Positions 583-14,390 of a stretch of 26,821 bases of DNA are shown here, in pieces. The DNA comes from a virus: UHGV virus genome UHGV-0258232. One strand, written 5' to 3'. The first letter of the stretch is position 1. Every line of letters starts with the position of its first letter. Made by a program: the position numbers and the translations under genes. The notes under the pieces were generated by a model that ran no database searches, was not told where the DNA came from, and worked only from the letters and a program-made list of their open reading frames with translations.

Positions 583-862
583 GACCTTCCTCCTTTGGCT
601 TGTGAATTTGTATCGTCATGCCGCTTTGAGTGGTGACTACAACGACAGAACCAGGCTGAAGACTGTTAAGATTGAATGCTTCGTAAAACGAAGCCAAGGC
701 CAGCGCTTTTTTATTCTTTCGGTTCCACCAACGCCATCCATTGCTACAGGCTACACTGACAATCCACTGTCCACTCCTGTAAGCCATATAAAACCAGATG
801 AGCAAAACCTGAATGAATGCTATCCAGTCAATAATCGTATATTTCGCGAAGGAGACCATCAA
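575..862 (-). CDS. Small hydrophobic protein (95 aa), putative membrane protein
   Basis: Track ORF; hydrophobic segment IIDWIAFIQVLLIWFYMAY; start overlaps upstream gene stop (ATGA), consistent with the operon. Confidence 0.4.
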   Translation of the reverse strand: MMVSFAKYTIIDWIAFIQVLLIWFYMAYRSGQWIVSVACSNGWRWWNRKNKKALALASFYEAFNLNSLQPGSVVVVTTQSGMTIQIHKPKEEGRG

Positions 863-1437
863 TTAACCTCCTGCGGCGGTTCCGGTAGAGGCATCCAGTA
901 CAAGGCGTTCCCTAACCACGATAAAGTGCCGTCGCTCAACTCCACGTATTCCCCTTGTACCTGTCCTGCCATATACTCGCCGTGCTTTGAATAAATTAAA
1001 ATCCAATCATCTTGAGCGGGCATTCGCTCACTACAGCTTATCCAACCATCCGGAGTTACCGGATAGTTGCCAGACAGCTCGTTCAACTTGTAAGTTTGGC
1101 TTACAGGTTCGGCTTCCAGTTCTGCAATGCGCTTCTCTGCAGCTTCCAGCTCAACGCGCAGCTTCCCTACCGTTAGCGCAATTTCCTCGTTCTCCTGGTC
1201 GCGGGATTTGATGTATTGCTGGTTCCTTTCCCGTTCATCCAGTAGTGCCAAAGCAATCTTTGGATTAAAGGCAGCAATAAATTCAGCGTTGTTTTTCAGA
1301 ACGTGTTGCGCAATGGCCTGACTACTTAGTCGGACCTCATAACCACGTGCGCCACGGTGTGGTTTATATGAGTCCCAGTCTCCCCACGTTGCCTTCTCCG
1401 CCGCCTCACGCAGTGCCTGATAATTAATTTCGCTCAC
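859..1437 (-). CDS. Ead/Ea22-like protein with C-terminal DUF551-like region
   Basis: Track ORF 192 aa; central coiled-coil (LTVGKLRVELEAAEKRIAELEA) and W-rich C-terminus typical of lambdoid ea-region proteins. Confidence 0.65.
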   Translation of the reverse strand: MSEINYQALREAAEKATWGDWDSYKPHRGARGYEVRLSSQAIAQHVLKNNAEFIAAFNPKIALALLDERERNQQYIKSRDQENEEIALTVGKLRVELEAAEKRIAELEAEPVSQTYKLNELSGNYPVTPDGWISCSERMPAQDDWILIYSKHGEYMAGQVQGEYVELSDGTLSWLGNALYWMPLPEPPQEVN

Positions 1438-2267: not shown

Positions 2268-2564
2268 TCAGTCATTACTGATAGCGCCATAGCGTGAGCG
2301 GTAATTACGCAGGCGCGGGTCGATATATTCAGGGAAGCGGGTATATGTGGCTTTGCGGAATGGTCGGATTGATGTCTGGTAAATTCGCTCGCGTTCTTCT
2401 TTCTCTGCAAGCCATATACAGTGGCGAAATTCCTTTTCCTCTTTCGTTTCCTGCGGTAGAGACATTATTCGATCGTAGTTTTTTCTGAATTTATCCAGCA
2501 CCTCCGATACGGAATTGCCGGAACAGCGGCGCGGGTCATCCGCACCATACAAAGGCGCTGGCAT
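2268..2564 (-). CDS. Hypothetical basic protein (98 aa)
   Basis: Track ORF in operon orientation directly downstream of ssb. Confidence 0.5.
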   Translation of the reverse strand: MPAPLYGADDPRRCSGNSVSEVLDKFRKNYDRIMSLPQETKEEKEFRHCIWLAEKEERERIYQTSIRPFRKATYTRFPEYIDPRLRNYRSRYGAISND

Positions 2565-3677: not shown

Positions 3678-3836
3678 TTATGGCGATACCAGAGAGCTTT
3701 CTGCGTGTACATGCGTCTCTGTAACTTGCTCTCCTTCACTGTGGTTGCAAGTGACATGAATATCTCCTTCGTTACCGATTAATTCTTTTATCTGACGAAT
3801 GAATTCTTCGTCTGACCAGTTATCCGTAAAACTCAT
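3678..3836 (-). CDS. Small early protein (about 52 aa), Kil/Arf-position ORF
   Basis: Track ORF trimmed to the internal ATG overlapping the cIII stop (ATGA); lies between cIII and erf where P22-like phages carry kil/arf; identity not established. Confidence 0.4.
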   Translation of the reverse strand: MSFTDNWSDEEFIRQIKELIGNEGDIHVTCNHSEGEQVTETHVHAESSLVSP

Positions 3837-4003
3837 GGACGGCCTTGTTGTTTCAAAATATCCCAAAGCTTTTCGAGCAAGCTTTTCATTCTTGGTTGTT
3901 TAAAGTCTGCTCCGGTTAAAATGTTTTTTCGTGAATGCTGTACCGATAAAATCGGGTTGAAAGGGCGAACCGATGCCGCCCCTGCAATAGCGAACTGTTG
4001 CAT
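3833..4003 (-). CDS. cIII: CIII-like FtsH (HflB) protease inhibitor (56 aa)
   Basis: MQQFAIAG...LLEKLWDILKQQGRP resembles recalled lambda CIII (MQYAIAGW...LIDILNQPG); AAGGAG RBS upstream of ATG at 4003. Confidence 0.75.
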   Translation of the reverse strand: MQQFAIAGAASVRPFNPILSVQHSRKNILTGADFKQPRMKSLLEKLWDILKQQGRP

Positions 4004-4065
4004 AGGATGCTCCTTCTGTTTGATTGCATAACGAAAACGCCTCGAGTGAAGCGTTATTGGTATGC

Positions 4066-4093
4066 ATATAAAAAAGCCCTCACATTGGAGGGC
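4066..4093 (-). terminator. Rho-independent terminator between accessory cassette and cIII
   Basis: Minus-strand GCCCTC-CAATGT-GAGGGC hairpin followed by TTTTTTAT. Confidence 0.55.
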
Positions 4094-4156
4094 AAAGAAG
4101 ATTTCCAATAATCAGAACAAGTCGGCTCCTGTTTAGTTACGAGCGACATTGCTCCG

Positions 4157-4184
4157 TGTATTCACTCGTTGGAATGAATACACA
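4157..4184. repeat. 9-bp perfect inverted repeat GTGTATTCA/TGAATACAC, 10-nt spacer
   Basis: Seen directly, immediately after the stop of the 62-aa ORF; no T-tract follows. Confidence 0.6.
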
Positions 4185-4188
4185 GTGC

Positions 4189-4377
4189 TTATTCGTCATG
4201 CATTTCAGGTAACTCTTCGTATTCGACGCTCCATACGTTTTCACACCAACTAACTCGCTCATATCTTTTACAGAAAGCAGACCACATAACTAGTGTTCCA
4301 TCATGGTTTGTTATTACTTCTGTAATATCACCAACACTAACAAAACTGGTATTAGAAGCGGTTATTTTTACTTTCAT
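4189..4377 (-). CDS. Hypothetical small protein (62 aa), accessory cassette gene 3
   Basis: Track ORF; start shares one base with the upstream stop (TAATG); low-GC. Confidence 0.5.
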   Translation of the reverse strand: MKVKITASNTSFVSVGDITEVITNHDGTLVMWSAFCKRYERVSWCENVWSVEYEELPEMHDE

Positions 4378-4673
4378 TACTTATCCCCAAGAGCTTTTCT
4401 TATTGCTGCGAGACCTTTATTAACAGCTCCATACCATTCTGGATATGTTGTCGTTGTTCTATTTTTGGTTTGCTTAAGTAATAACTGAAGTGCTTCGAGA
4501 AGGTCAGGTGCTGCCGCTATTAGATTGGCATCTTCAATGCATTGAACTTCCTCACAGATTGCAATATACGAACGCCAGCCTGCGCCATTTTCAAGTGAGT
4601 CTGCCTGGATGATTTTAATCTCATCCCCATCCATCATTATTTCCCACTTACCTTCAGTACCTTTAAATTCCAT
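4377..4673 (-). CDS. Hypothetical protein (98 aa), accessory cassette gene 2
   Basis: Track ORF; AGAGG RBS upstream of ATG at 4673; low-GC; no recognisable motif. Confidence 0.6.
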   Translation of the reverse strand: MEFKGTEGKWEIMMDGDEIKIIQADSLENGAGWRSYIAICEEVQCIEDANLIAAAPDLLEALQLLLKQTKNRTTTTYPEWYGAVNKGLAAIRKALGDK

Positions 4674-4692
4674 GTTAGCCTCTGTTGTTTAT

Positions 4693-4720
4693 GCCAAAAA
4701 TAAAGGCCGACTATGCGGCC
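4693..4720 (-). terminator. Rho-independent terminator or attenuator after the 156-aa gene
   Basis: Minus-strand GGCCG-CATAGT-CGGCC hairpin followed by TTTATTTTTGG; overlaps the gene stop codon. Confidence 0.5.
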
Positions 4721-5190
4721 TAGTAGAATACCCAATTTTCTGTTTCTTGGTTGTGTCCAAAGTTATATTCAATATCTGGTGTTGATGTATCAATATTCTT
4801 CATCCCATCAACAAGAGTTGATACAACAGCCAAATCTTGTTTGATTCTCATTAAATGGTATTTCTTCCGGCGCAATAAACTTTCAATGGCAAGTTTCTTC
4901 GTTGGGAATGCAAAAGATCTTTCTGCATTTTTTGCTACTTTCTTAATTGCATATCTATTTCTCTTTTGTTTCCATTCCTGTAACCACTGATTTGGTGCTG
5001 GTTTAAAATTAACAATCCAATGCGCAGGAACCAACCATGCATAATGCTCTGTCTGATGAAAAGCTATATATTGAAGTGCGAATATTTTGATTCCATCTTC
5101 TTCAACTGTCGCCTGGAATCTCCAGAAAACAGGCATTCCATCATGTTCAGTTTCTGATTCAGGAAAAGGTACGCTCCATGATTTTGTCAT
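4720..5190 (-). CDS. Hypothetical protein (156 aa), accessory cassette gene 1
   Basis: Track ORF; GAGGTGA RBS upstream of ATG at 5190; low-GC; about 200 bp non-coding upstream; no recognisable motif. Confidence 0.6.
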   Translation of the reverse strand: MTKSWSVPFPESETEHDGMPVFWRFQATVEEDGIKIFALQYIAFHQTEHYAWLVPAHWIVNFKPAPNQWLQEWKQKRNRYAIKKVAKNAERSFAFPTKKLAIESLLRRKKYHLMRIKQDLAVVSTLVDGMKNIDTSTPDIEYNFGHNQETENWVFY

Positions 5191-5390
5191 ATCTCACCTC
5201 AAATAAGTGGCTTGCTGCGAAAATAAATCCGCTTAAGTTACCTGTTATTTATCCCACCAAGTTCCGTATCTATCTATCCAGTTACACCAATCATCGACAC
5301 TCCATTTTGTTGTGTCGCATTTTGGCAACTGGCATGAATATCTACCTTCTTTGTAAAGTCGGCGTTTGACTTTCTTGAGCATGGCTCACC

Positions 5391-5723
5391 TCAATCGTAA
5401 TAAGCTGGAATTGATTTTCCGCGTTGCTTCTGGCGGCCTGAGCAAGTCACACCCATTTCACTGCGTGGCTTGCTGTACCATGTGCGCTGATTCTTGCGCT
5501 CAATACGTTGCAGGTTGCTTTCAATCTGTTCGTGGTATTCAGCCAGCACCGTAAGGTCTATCGGATTCAGTGCGCTTTCTACTCGTGATTTCGGTTTGCG
5601 ATTCAGCGAGAGAATAGGGCGGTTAACTGGTTTTGCGCTTACCCCAACCAACAGGGGATTTGCTGCTTTCCATTGAGCCTGTTTCTCTGCGCGACGTTCG
5701 CGGCGGCGTGTTTGTGCATCCAT
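5391..5723 (-). CDS. N: N-type transcription antitermination protein (110 aa)
   Basis: From the internal ATG reads MDAQTRRRERRAEKQAQWKAANPLLVGVSAKPVNRPILSLNRKPKSRVESALNPIDLTVLAEY, matching recalled lambda N incl. arginine-rich motif; C-terminus diverges. Confidence 0.9.
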   Translation of the reverse strand: MDAQTRRRERRAEKQAQWKAANPLLVGVSAKPVNRPILSLNRKPKSRVESALNPIDLTVLAEYHEQIESNLQRIERKNQRTWYSKPRSEMGVTCSGRQKQRGKSIPAYYD

Positions 5724-5833: not shown

Positions 5834-5864
5834 GCCCTTCTTCAGGGCTTAATTTTTAAGAGCA
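5834..5864 (-). promoter_or_regulatory. nutL site (boxA and boxB)
   Basis: Minus-strand TGCTCTTAAAAATTAA (boxA-like) and GCCCTGAAGAAGGGC (boxB hairpin), matching recalled lambda nutL, between PL and N. Confidence 0.85.
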
Positions 5865-5879
5865 TCACCTTCATGGTGG

Positions 5880-5950
5880 TCAGTGCGTCCTGCTGATGGC
5901 TTAAAATTACAAGAAAGATTGTATGTTGTAAACAAGAAATATTGTAAAAA
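5880..5950 (-). promoter_or_regulatory. PL promoter region (approximate)
   Basis: Minus-strand TTTACA, 17 nt, TAATTT overlapping OL operators upstream of nutL; exact -10/-35 not verified. Confidence 0.45.
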
Positions 5951-5976
5951 GGGGCGTGAAAAACAAACTCCATTGT
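5909..5976. promoter_or_regulatory. OL operators, 434 type (three 14-bp sites)
   Basis: ACAAGAAAGATTGT (5909-5922), ACAAGAAATATTGT (5932-5945), ACAAACTCCATTGT (5963-5976) fit the 434 operator pattern ACAA-N6-TTGT. Confidence 0.8.
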
Positions 5977-6025
5977 TTTTAAATGAAAAATAGTTTGTTT
6001 TTGGTTATCGAGATTGAGGTGGGGA

Positions 6026-7378
<1,353 letters not shown>

Positions 7379-14234: not shown

Positions 14235-14309
14235 GGGTCAGTCGTATAAAGGTCATTACGGAAGGCTGTTAACCTTCTTATCGTGGTTCGAGTCCACGCT
14301 GTCCCGCCA
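14235..14309 (+). tRNA. tRNA-Asn (anticodon GUU)
   Basis: Cloverleaf folded by hand: acceptor GGGTCAG/CTGTCCC (one U-U mismatch), D-loop with GG, anticodon arm GAAGG-CTGTTAA-CCTTC (GTT), T-arm CGTGG-TTCGAGT-CCACG, discriminator G, encoded CCA. Confidence 0.75.
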
Positions 14310-14314
14310 AATAT

Positions 14315-14390
14315 GCTGGTTTAGCTCCAATGGTAGAGCGGTCGCCTTGTAAGCGAATGGGTAGCGGTTCAAGTCCGTTAACCAGCACCA
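14315..14390 (+). tRNA. tRNA-Thr (anticodon UGU)
   Basis: Cloverleaf folded by hand: acceptor GCTGGTT/AACCAGC, D-arm GCTC-CAATGGTA-GAGC, anticodon loop CTTGTAA (TGT), T-arm AGCGG-TTCAAGT-CCGTT, discriminator A, encoded CCA. Confidence 0.75.

What the first reader, a model, noticed from the sequence alone, without database searches (positions are those of the whole stretch)
4189..5390. Low-GC three-gene accessory cassette at the N-cIII moron hotspot
Three ORFs of unknown function (156, 98 and 62 aa; minus strand) lie between N and cIII, where lambda and P22 carry ral/sieB-type accessory functions. Sampled 60-bp windows here are about 30-40% GC versus about 50% in the replication genes, suggesting horizontal acquisition. 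The cassette has about 200 bp of non-coding DNA upstream (5191-5390) and hairpin-plus-T-tract elements downstream. None of the three proteins has a motif I can assign. This is my leading candidate for an uncharacterised defence, anti-defence or superinfection-exclusion function.
Basis: partly seen in the sequence, partly recalled or inferred. Interest (0 to 1): 0.65.

Follow-up and report, generated by a model that had tools for sequence, protein, structure and literature searches.

The report
Mosaic accessory genes in pL operon
This low-GC stretch between the phage genes N and cIII is real, but it is a patchwork of four independently shuffled small early genes of unknown function, already common in HK97, Shiga-toxin and P22-type phages, and not a new three-gene defence system.

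Summary
The three minus-strand ORFs exist at the stated coordinates. The interval is 38.5% GC against 48.0% for the window, the lowest 1.2-kb stretch present. The "non-coding" 5191-5390 is wrong: it holds a 45-aa gene (DUF5484, the T4 gp55.4 family).

The 156-aa protein is 99% identical to HK97 gp45 and 933W L0079, and occurs in 598 of 5426 complete E. coli genomes. The 98-aa protein belongs to Pfam PF27050 (Phage_P22_Y8K6). The 62-aa protein matches the C-terminus of RB49p076.

These genes assort independently. In E. coli JCKP02 the 156-aa gene plus its terminator stem is replaced, within shared flanks, by a ral cassette. Nmad5, DUF7446, HNH and other genes fill the same slot elsewhere. Near-identical 98-aa alleles are followed by three unrelated small genes.

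I found no internal promoter, no transmembrane segment, no PADLOC, Pfam or NCBIfam function, and no informative fold match. Three of the four genes have homologues in strictly virulent phages.

My best reading is that these are soluble lytic-phase accessory proteins transcribed from pL, plausibly for counter-defence or host takeover. They are not a prophage-expressed defence or exclusion system. Function remains untested, so interest is modest.

The parts
5900..5960 (-). Probable oL/pL region: repeated ACAA...TTGT operator-like dyads and TTTACA-17-TAATTT. The coordinates are approximate.
   Evidence: Read from the sequence. Its position matches the pL/oL annotated in Sf6 and mEp043. The consensus scan did not call it.
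5834..5864 (-). nutL: boxA-like TGCTCTTA (5864-5857) and boxB GCCCTGAAGAAGGGC (5848-5834).
   Evidence: Read from the sequence. From my own knowledge, the boxB is identical to lambda nutL boxB. Sf6 and 933W annotate nutL at the same relative place.
5391..5723 (-). Antiterminator N (110 aa from the ATG at 5723).
   Evidence: Pfam N36, E 2.6e-26. Annotated as N in related records.
5245..5382 (-). 45-aa gene of the DUF5484 / T4 gp55.4 / Sf6 gp36 family.
   Evidence: Pfam PF17583, E 2.6e-12; phrog_1871, E 1.4e-22. 100% identical to Sf6 gp36. 916 phage records match, mostly T-even phages at about 50% identity.
4720..5190 (-). 156-aa basic (pI 9.05) soluble protein of the HK97 gp45 / 933W L0079 family. 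It is the slot-1 cassette and is exchangeable with ral.
   Evidence: phrog_1636, E 5e-112. 98.7-100% identical to HK97 gp45, 933W L0079 and H-19B. Present in 598 of 5426 E. coli genomes. The swap junctions lie at 5188 and 4708.
4695..4721 (-). Terminator-like hairpin AGGCCG-CATAGT-CGGCCT followed by TTTATTTTT. This is the first such element called downstream of pL (T1).
   Evidence: -9.6 kcal/mol. JCKP02 has a different stem followed by the same T-tract at this position. The hairpin is absent when DUF7446 lies upstream.
4377..4673 (-). 98-aa acidic protein, Pfam PF27050 (Phage_P22_Y8K6). The model shows a small beta unit plus a helical hairpin. The frame is conserved and the hairpin tip (about residues 63-88) is hypervariable.
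   Evidence: phrog_1273. PF27050 is precomputed on 97-100% identical proteins and named. Model pLDDT 71.3. 22 tip classes among 82 representatives.
4189..4377 (-). 62-aa acidic protein. Its start overlaps the stop of the 98-aa gene (TAATG).
   Evidence: phrog_10407. About 55% identical to the C-terminal half of RB49p076 and other Krischvirus proteins. It recurs directly after PF27050 genes in E. coli prophages.
4151..4197 (-). Module boundary: the junction ...CGAATAA|GCAC and a conserved 14-bp hairpin (core 4185-4154).
   Evidence: Every right-hand module (62-, 70-, 52- and 41-aa genes; HK97 and 933W gp45) joins the same sequence here. mEp043 and Salmonella carry a hairpin of different sequence at the same place, at -18 kcal/mol.
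4036..4093 (-). Two terminator-like hairpins (4093-4076 followed by TTTTTT; 4055-4036) upstream of cIII. These are the tL2a-type terminators.
   Evidence: HK97 has the same element annotated as a putative terminator, and Sf6 annotates a terminator as tL2A at the corresponding position, next to boundary sequence bsq4.
3833..4003 (-). cIII (56 aa from the ATG at 4003).
   Evidence: phrog_550, E 4e-22. Neighbouring loci are annotated as CIII / PF02061.

Best explanation
The interval is a low-GC mosaic accessory segment of the N-antiterminated early-left (pL) operon of a lambdoid phage with a P22/HK97-type early region. It carries four small soluble-protein genes in at least three independently exchangeable modules:
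1. A 45-aa homologue of T4 gp55.4 (DUF5484).
2. The 156-aa HK97 gp45 / 933W L0079 protein with its own terminator stem.
3. A PF27050 protein.
4. A translationally coupled small acidic gene, here 62 aa.

Shown:
- The anatomy, the family memberships and the wide distribution of each gene.
- Exchange of the 156-aa cassette, within shared flanks, against a ral cassette and against other genes.
- No internal consensus promoter, no transmembrane segment and no match to a defence-system model.
- Homologues in virulent phages for three of the four genes.

Inferred:
- The genes are transcribed only from pL during infection or induction.
- N, the 45-aa gene and the 156-aa gene lie upstream of the first intrinsic terminator, so they would be made before N acts. 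The 98/62 pair would need N-mediated read-through.
- The proteins act in the cytoplasm during lytic growth as host-takeover or counter-defence factors. The 156-aa protein would be a positional alternative to the anti-restriction protein Ral.

The segment is not a single multi-gene system, and probably not a prophage-expressed defence or exclusion function.
For: Anatomy.

Family identities:
- 156 aa: phrog_1636; 99% identical to HK97 gp45 and 933W L0079.
- 98 aa: PF27050, Phage_P22_Y8K6.
- 45 aa: DUF5484 / T4 gp55.4.
- 62 aa: C-terminal domain of RB49p076.

Independent assortment:
- gp45 occurs alone in HK97 and 933W.
- Near-identical 98-aa alleles are followed by the 62-aa gene (window), a 70-aa gene (SC407) or a 52-aa gene (mEp043).
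- The Salmonella PF27050 gene is followed by a 41-aa ORF.
- In E. coli genomes the counts are 598 for the 156-aa gene, 55 for the full 98+62 pair and 8 for the whole interval, out of 5426.

Precise swap: JCKP02 shares everything up to the ATG (5188) and from the terminator T-tract (4708) onward. In between it carries a 28-aa acidic ORF, ral and a different terminator stem. Nmad5, DUF7446, a 149-aa protein and HNH_3 occupy the same slot in other loci.

Lytic-phase reading:
- No sigma-70-like site on the minus strand within 4100-5400.
- Homologues in virulent Krischvirus, Vequintavirinae and T-even phages.
- A T-even gp55.4 transcript is reported among early-to-middle transcripts (bioRxiv 10.64898/2026.03.01.708804).
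- No segment reaches transmembrane-like hydrophobicity.
- No significant PADLOC hit.

HK97 has the same layout, with no convincing terminator between pL and the end of gp45. pN/pS is mostly below 0.5, which indicates maintained coding function.
Against: Nothing here is a functional test.
- The promoter scan is a crude consensus scan that did not even call pL itself. A TGnCATAAA extended -10-like sequence sits just upstream of the 98-aa gene, although Salmonella does not conserve it.
- Sharing a slot with ral is guilt by position only. The same slot also holds an HNH endonuclease-like gene and unknown genes.
- In Pectobacterium the gp45 homologue lies next to xis-int rather than next to N, so immediate-early placement is not universal.
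- The structure models are of low to moderate confidence (pLDDT 62.8 and 71.3) and gave no informative fold match. A non-defence role such as regulation or nucleic-acid binding is equally compatible for the basic 156-aa protein.
- None of the four proteins was among the 200 accessory genes screened by Silas et al., so no phenotype exists for them.
Confidence: 0.45

Rival explanations
1. One reading: a prophage-expressed moron that encodes a defence or superinfection-exclusion function acting against other phages, like sieB or rex in lambda and P22.
For: The position is the one where P22 and lambda carry sieB (background knowledge; a P22-like locus has exclusion-related genes in the same operon). 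Low GC fits horizontal acquisition. Terminator-like hairpins bracket the 98/62 pair, and a weak extended -10-like TGGCATAAA precedes it.
Against: No consensus promoter lies on the coding strand inside the interval. There was no significant PADLOC hit and no membrane segment, whereas SieB, Rex, Imm and Cor-type exclusion proteins are membrane-associated (background knowledge). Three of the four genes have homologues in strictly virulent phages, which have no lysogens to protect. The genes are not inherited as a unit. The -10-like motif is not conserved in Salmonella.
Confidence: 0.1
2. The proteins serve the phage's own development rather than host conflict. For example, the basic 156-aa protein could be an early nucleic-acid-binding regulator or DNA-metabolism accessory factor, and the small proteins could modulate recombination, replication or the lysis-lysogeny decision, as cIII and Kil do nearby.
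For: The 156-aa protein is basic, with a conserved Lys/Arg-rich helix (RYAIKKVAKNAERSFAFPTKKLAIESLLRRKKYHL) retained in distant relatives. Its homologues sit at the head of early operons or beside recombination genes in unrelated phages. Its neighbours are regulatory and recombination genes: N, cIII, Kil, Erf and Abc2.
Against: The genes are dispensable in the sense that many sibling phages lack them or carry unrelated genes in the same place. There is no DNA- or RNA-binding domain hit in Pfam or NCBIfam and no fold match. hhalign against slot neighbours, including the HNH_3 protein, found nothing.
Confidence: 0.25
3. The 98-aa and 62-aa proteins are a two-component unit, either a complex or a toxin-antitoxin-like pair. 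The hypervariable tip of the 98-aa protein would set its specificity.
For: The stop and start codons overlap (TAATG), and the 98/95/96-aa + 62-aa arrangement recurs in several E. coli contexts. A small overlapping ORF follows PF27050 genes in E. coli, Salmonella and P22-like phages.
Against: Near-identical 98-aa alleles (97-99% identical, same tip) are followed by three unrelated partners of 62, 70 and 52 aa, so the partner does not co-vary with the protein. The RB49 homologue of the 62-aa protein is fused to an N-terminal part unrelated to PF27050. The KB57 homologue of the 98-aa protein has no such partner annotated.
Confidence: 0.15

Closest known systems
HK97 gp45 / 933W L0079 / H-19B unnamed ORF (phrog_1636)
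   Same: The 156-aa protein is 98.7-100% identical to these. In these phages it holds the same position directly downstream of N, upstream of the tL2a-type terminator and cIII.
   Different: Here the 45-aa gene lies upstream of it, and a terminator hairpin plus the 98/62 pair lie downstream. No function is recorded for any family member.
Lambda / P22 / Sf6 Ral (anti-restriction, PF11058) cassette
   Same: It occupies exactly the same slot. In E. coli JCKP02 a ral cassette replaces the 156-aa gene between identical flanks: a shared RBS and ATG on one side, and a shared terminator T-tract and PF27050 leader on the other. Both are small early pL genes.
   Different: There is no sequence or profile similarity to Ral (no Pfam Ral hit). 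Size and charge also differ. The analogy is positional only.
Pfam PF27050 Phage_P22_Y8K6 (uncharacterised P22 early-left protein; phrog_1273)
   Same: The 98-aa protein's closest relatives (97-100% identical) carry this precomputed domain. In P22-like phages the family sits between ral and gene 17.
   Different: The family has no known function. The local Pfam copy lacks the model, so I could not score the window protein against it directly.
T4 gp55.4 / Sf6 gp36 (DUF5484)
   Same: The 45-aa ORF is 100% identical to Sf6 gp36 and about 52% identical to T4 gp55.4.
   Different: Function is unknown. In T-even phages it is an early/middle gene in a different genomic context.
Lambda sieB / rexAB and HK97 gp15-type morons (prophage-expressed exclusion genes)
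   Same: They are low-GC accessory genes inserted in a lambdoid genome and flanked by terminator-like hairpins.
   Different: No own promoter was detected, there is no membrane segment and no homology, and homologues occur in virulent phages. The true rex-slot gene of this window is a different ORF, at 6026-6430.

Membership tests
HK97 gp45 / 933W L0079 family (phrog_1636) | Full-length sequence similarity to the family profile and to named members. | tested here: met
   phrog_1636, E 5.4e-112 over residues 1-156. tblastn gives 98.7% identity to HK97 gp45, 99.4% to 933W and 100% to H-19B.
Pfam PF27050 Phage_P22_Y8K6 | A match to the Pfam model. | tested here: inconclusive
   The model is missing from the local Pfam copy, so there is no direct score. 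Proteins 97-100% identical to the window protein carry the precomputed PF27050 hit. phrog_1273, E 5e-32.
DUF5484 (PF17583) / T4 gp55.4 | A match above the Pfam gathering score. | tested here: met
   46.7 bits against a cut-off of 27, E 2.6e-12. tblastn to T4 55.4 gives 52.5% identity over 87% of the query.
Ral anti-restriction family (PF11058) | Sequence similarity to Ral. | tested here: not met
   No Pfam Ral hit for any of the four proteins at E <= 0.1. Only the genomic slot is shared.
Ral anti-restriction family (PF11058) | Alleviation of type I restriction in vivo. | not testable with these tools
   This needs plating of unmodified phage on EcoKI/EcoBI hosts with and without the gene.
Known anti-phage defence systems (PADLOC-DB v2) | A match of any component to a defence-system protein model. 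| tested here: not met
   The only hit is a chance-level Cas1_II match (E 0.0097, 13 bits) for the 156-aa protein. The others have none.
Superinfection-exclusion proteins of the SieB/Rex/Imm type | A membrane-associated protein, with at least one hydrophobic transmembrane segment. | tested here: not met
   The maximum Kyte-Doolittle 19-residue mean is 0.56-1.11 for the 156-, 98- and 62-aa proteins and -0.74 for the 45-aa protein. There is no Pfam or PHROG exclusion annotation.
Superinfection-exclusion proteins of the SieB/Rex/Imm type | Expression from the repressed prophage. | tested here: inconclusive
   The consensus scan finds no sigma-70-like site on the coding strand in 4100-5400. The scan is insensitive and also missed pL. 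Expression data are needed.
Moron (Juhala/Hendrix sense): an autonomous promoter-gene-terminator unit | Own promoter upstream and terminator downstream, inserted between genes that are adjacent in relatives. | tested here: inconclusive
   Insertion relative to HK97 and 933W is shown for the hairpin+98+62 block. Terminator-like hairpins are present. No promoter was found, and the -10-like motif is not conserved in Salmonella.
Single multi-gene system (co-inherited operon) | The components co-occur and co-vary across genomes. | tested here: not met
   E. coli genomes with the 156-aa gene: 598. With the complete 98+62 pair: 55. With the whole interval: 8. Partner genes are swapped next to identical 98-aa alleles.

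The most novel reading that the evidence does not exclude
One or more of these proteins founds a new family of phage counter-defence factors. There are two candidates. The first is the HK97 gp45 / 933W L0079 protein, made together with N ahead of the first terminator and interchangeable with ral. The second is the PF27050 protein, whose invariant frame (EDAxLIAAAPDLLEAL ... AAISKALGEE) carries at least 22 unrelated 20-51-aa tip cassettes. That pattern would fit a specificity determinant that binds polymorphic host or prophage immunity proteins.
Probability: 0.2. Interest if true: 0.65.

Novelty: new member of a known kind. Interest (0 to 1): 0.3.

Why it matters
The 156-aa gene sits next to N in HK97 and in most sequenced Stx1/Stx2-converting phages, and in about 11% of complete E. 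coli genomes, yet nobody knows what it does. If it or the PF27050 protein proved to be a counter-defence factor, that would explain a conserved, very early gene of medically important phages and add a family to the anti-defence catalogue.

As it stands, the result mainly tidies the picture:
- The region is an ordinary lambdoid mosaic hotspot built from already catalogued ORFans.
- The module boundaries are now defined to the base.
- A better candidate for a lysogen-expressed exclusion gene lies elsewhere in the window, in the rex slot at 6026-6430.

Tried and rejected
- **Family scans.** Pfam, NCBIfam and PADLOC scans of all the proteins gave no functional hit. PHROGs gave only families of unknown function.
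- **PDB sequence search.** Profile searches with A1 and A2 found nothing meaningful.
- **Structure.** The AlphaFold2 models were weak to moderate: 156 aa at pLDDT 62.8, 98 aa at pLDDT 71.3.
- **Profile search of 1.84 billion representatives.** Starting from the 156-aa family, this uncovered a wider family of 130-155-aa phage proteins, but none is annotated. The multi-domain hit P0205 is a repetitive protein and probably spurious.
- **AP2/integrase-like idea.** I suspected a beta-beta-alpha DNA-binding element in the 156-aa protein (RSFAFPTKKLAIESL). hhalign against the HNH_3 slot neighbour and others gave probabilities below 1%, so I dropped it.
- **Ead/Ea22 idea.** I suspected that PF27050 is related to the Ead/Ea22-like protein of this window through a shared NAxFIAA motif. 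hhalign was not significant.
- **Rosetta-stone fusion idea.** The N-terminal half of RB49p076 is unrelated to PF27050.
- **The search for related loci.** The distant alignments had no conserved stretch to search with.
- **Literature.** I found no paper on L0079, HK97 gp45, the WP accessions, PF27050 or DUF5484. orf184 of Silas et al., the ral-region gene that triggers gop-beta-cII, begins MEALVVERSEDGYW and is none of these proteins. None of the four appears among their 200 tested genes.
- **Rfam.** Nothing in the interval.
Full report
**Setting.** The window is the early region of a lambdoid phage. On the minus strand it carries, in order:
- a LexA-type repressor (6427-7059);
- an oL/pL region (about 5960-5900);
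- nutL, with boxA-like TGCTCTTA and a boxB that matches lambda's GCCCTGAAGAAGGGC from my own knowledge (5864-5834);
- N (5723-5391; Pfam N36, E 2.6e-26);
- the interval in question;
- cIII (4003-3833; phrog_550);
- two small ORFs that match PHROG families labelled 'recombinase' (HK97 gp42/42.1-like), and an Erf/SSB/Abc2-type recombination region.

These assignments rest.

**Checking the observation.**
- Each has a ribosome-binding site. The 98- and 62-aa genes overlap by TAATG.
- Homologues of conserved length exist in other genera. pN/pS against relatives is mostly 0.05-0.4, on small counts. These are real genes.
- GC is 38.5% for 4189-5390 against 48.0% for the window. That is the lowest 1.2-kb stretch, at the 0.5th percentile. 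GC3 is 27-30%.
- The downstream hairpins exist.
- The 'about 200 bp of non-coding DNA' at 5191-5390 is wrong. A 45-aa ORF (5382..5245) starts 8 nt after the N stop codon, behind GGTGAG. It hits Pfam DUF5484 above threshold, is identical to Sf6 gp36, and belongs to the T4 gp55.4 family, which matches in 916 phage records.

**What the genes are.**
- The 156-aa protein is 98.7-100% identical to HK97 gp45, 933W L0079 and the unannotated H-19B ORF. It is present in 83 phage records, mostly Stx1/Stx2-converting phages, and in 598 of 5426 complete E. coli genomes.
- A profile search of 1.84 billion representatives links it to a broader family of 130-155-aa phage proteins. These share an N-terminal beta unit and a conserved basic helix, and all are unannotated.
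- The 98-aa protein belongs to Pfam PF27050, 'Phage_P22_Y8K6'. This is a family of uncharacterised early-left proteins found between ral and gene 17 in P22-like phages. It has full-length homologues in virulent Vequintavirinae, for example KB57_029.
- The 62-aa protein is about 55% identical to the C-terminal half of RB49p076 and other Krischvirus (T4-like) proteins.

No function followed from any of these approaches:
- Pfam, NCBIfam, PADLOC and PDB sequence searches;
- AlphaFold2 models at pLDDT 62.8 and 71.3;

The literature searches found nothing on these proteins. None is among the 200 accessory genes screened by Silas et al..

**It is a hotspot, but not one cassette.** Contents of the N-to-cIII interval in related loci are listed below. 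The last four rows list only the part of the interval that differs.

| Locus | Genes between N and cIII |
|---|---|
| HK97 | gp45 |
| 933W | L0079, ssb (Ea10-like) |
| E. coli 90-9281 | 156, 98, 62, gp33-like |
| Bas106 | 54, 156, 92, 70, 32, gp33-like |
| Dewey | 156, 92, 70, 31 |
| mEp043 | 51, 98, 52, gp33-like |
| Sf6 | gp36, ral, gp34, gp33 |
| E. coli CP109924 | 74, Nmad5, 96, 62 |
| Other E. coli prophages | DUF7446 or a 149-aa protein, then 95, 62 |
| Salmonella prophages | (ral), HNH_3, 98, then an uncalled 41-aa ORF |
| E. coli JCKP02 | 45, 28-aa acidic ORF, ral, 98, 62 |

- Only 8 of 5426 E. coli genomes carry at least 80% of this exact interval.
- Base-level comparison defines the joints.
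  - Relative to HK97 and 933W, the block made of the hairpin, the 98-aa gene and the 62-aa gene is an insertion. It lies between the gp45 stop codon and the shared junction ...CGAATAA|GCACTGTG.
  - Every alternative right-hand gene (62, 70, 52 or 41 aa) ends in that same junction.
- In JCKP02 the sequence matches the window closely up to the start codon of the 156-aa gene (5188), and again from the terminator T-tract (4708) onward. In between lies a ral cassette with a different terminator stem.
- Near-identical 98-aa alleles are followed by unrelated partners.
What swaps are single genes, not a three-gene unit.

**Expression and likely mode of action (inferred).**
- The consensus scan finds no promoter on the coding strand inside 4100-5400. 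The scan is insensitive, however.
- No terminator-like site was called between pL and 4721. N, the 45-aa gene and the 156-aa gene should therefore be transcribed before N acts, while the 98/62 pair and cIII need antitermination.
- HK97 has the equivalent layout. JCKP02 keeps a terminator of different sequence at the same place, which argues that the element is functional.
- This placement is not universal. In Pectobacterium the homologue lies beside xis-int.
- All four proteins lack hydrophobic segments. The 98- and 62-aa proteins are acidic and the 156-aa protein is basic.
- Three of the four have homologues in virulent phages.
- Taken together, these points favour soluble lytic-phase factors for host takeover or counter-defence, over a lysogen-expressed defence or exclusion function. 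The exact swap against ral gives the 156-aa protein a weak positional link to anti-restriction. I put about 0.45 on this overall reading. Its anatomical part is solid and its functional part is inference.

**Rivals.**
- A prophage-expressed exclusion or defence moron, 0.10. Against it: the missing promoter and membrane features, no PADLOC hit, and the homologues in virulent phages.
- A role in the phage's own development or nucleic-acid transactions, 0.25. This is compatible with the basic helix of the 156-aa protein and its position at the head of early operons in a Salmonella phage and a Vibrio phage.
- An obligate 98/62 two-component pair, 0.15. Partner swapping argues against it.

**A feature worth recording.** PF27050 proteins have near-invariant islands: MEFKGTxGxW, EDAxLIAAAPDLLEAL and AAISKALGEE. 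These islands flank two alternative N-terminal beta units and a hypervariable segment at the tip of the predicted helical hairpin. Among 82 cluster representatives with both anchors there are 22 unrelated tip classes of 20-51 residues, and they recombine freely with the N-terminal variants. This may be ordinary lambdoid mosaicism at conserved DNA joints, or it may be a specificity cassette. It is the most interesting lead in the interval.

**Verdict.** The interpretation as a three-gene defence cassette is not supported. The genes are known ORFans in a known type of mosaic hotspot. Novelty lies only in their untested functions. Interest 0.3.

Noticed in passing
window 6026-6502 (-), probable true start at 6430: The rex-slot gene. 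The ORF directly downstream of the repressor has an internal ATG that overlaps the repressor stop codon (ATGA). From that start it encodes 134 aa with a signal-peptide-like N-terminus ([18 protein letters not shown]|EC). Its only family hit is phrog_2651 (unknown function), and it has no Pfam, NCBIfam or PADLOC hit. The local GC is 35.7% (5851-6150). It would be co-transcribed with the repressor in lysogens, which makes it a better candidate for a prophage-expressed exclusion or conversion function than the finding itself.
   Followed up: partly
window 4151-4197 (-): A 14-bp perfect hairpin (-21.7 kcal/mol) follows the universal module junction CGAATAA|GCAC. HK97 and 933W carry the same hairpin. 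mEp043 and Salmonella prophages have a hairpin of unrelated sequence at the same position (-18 kcal/mol). The structure is conserved while the sequence is not. This could be an RNA processing or stability element, or a recombination boundary (Sf6 'bsq4').
   Followed up: partly
window 4377-4673 (-) and proteins P0034-P0153: The PF27050 family has an invariant frame with a hypervariable tip: 22 unrelated tip classes (20-51 aa) among 82 representatives. It also has two interchangeable N-terminal variants.
   Followed up: partly
window 5245-5382 (-): An unreported 45-aa gene (DUF5484) identical to Sf6 gp36 and homologous to T4 gp55.4. It has three Cys (C17, C22, C33) and four Trp, and is highly basic.
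   Followed up: yes
L047 (E. coli JCKP02) about 2285-2370 (-): An unannotated, extremely acidic 28-aa ORF (MEEEFEEFEEHPQDVMEQYQDYPYDYDY). It starts at the RBS and ATG that the 156-aa gene uses in the window, and lies directly upstream of ral.
   Followed up: no
L043/L046 (Salmonella prophages) about 2795-2920: An uncalled 41-aa ORF (MEINKEQASEIIKLIEQALLDGFDDEILVSLHESLTKFVSE) overlaps the stop codon of the PF27050 gene. The equivalent ORF is annotated in phage Salfasec13b (phrog_11224).
   Followed up: partly
window 4137-4262 (-) and the Bas106/Dewey 31-32-aa CDS: Small ORFs annotated or listed across the tL2a-type hairpin region are probably not genes. They run through the conserved hairpin and terminator sequence.
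   Followed up: no
window 14235-14387 (+): Two adjacent tRNA genes (Rfam tRNA, 55 and 61 bits).
   Followed up: no
window 859-1437 (-) and 2268-2564 (-): An Ead/Ea22-like + DUF551 protein (192 aa) and a P22 Abc2 anti-RecBCD homologue (98 aa, E 3e-62) lie further down the same operon. The Ead/Ea22 protein shares a short NAxFIAA motif with PF27050, but the similarity is not significant.
   Followed up: partly
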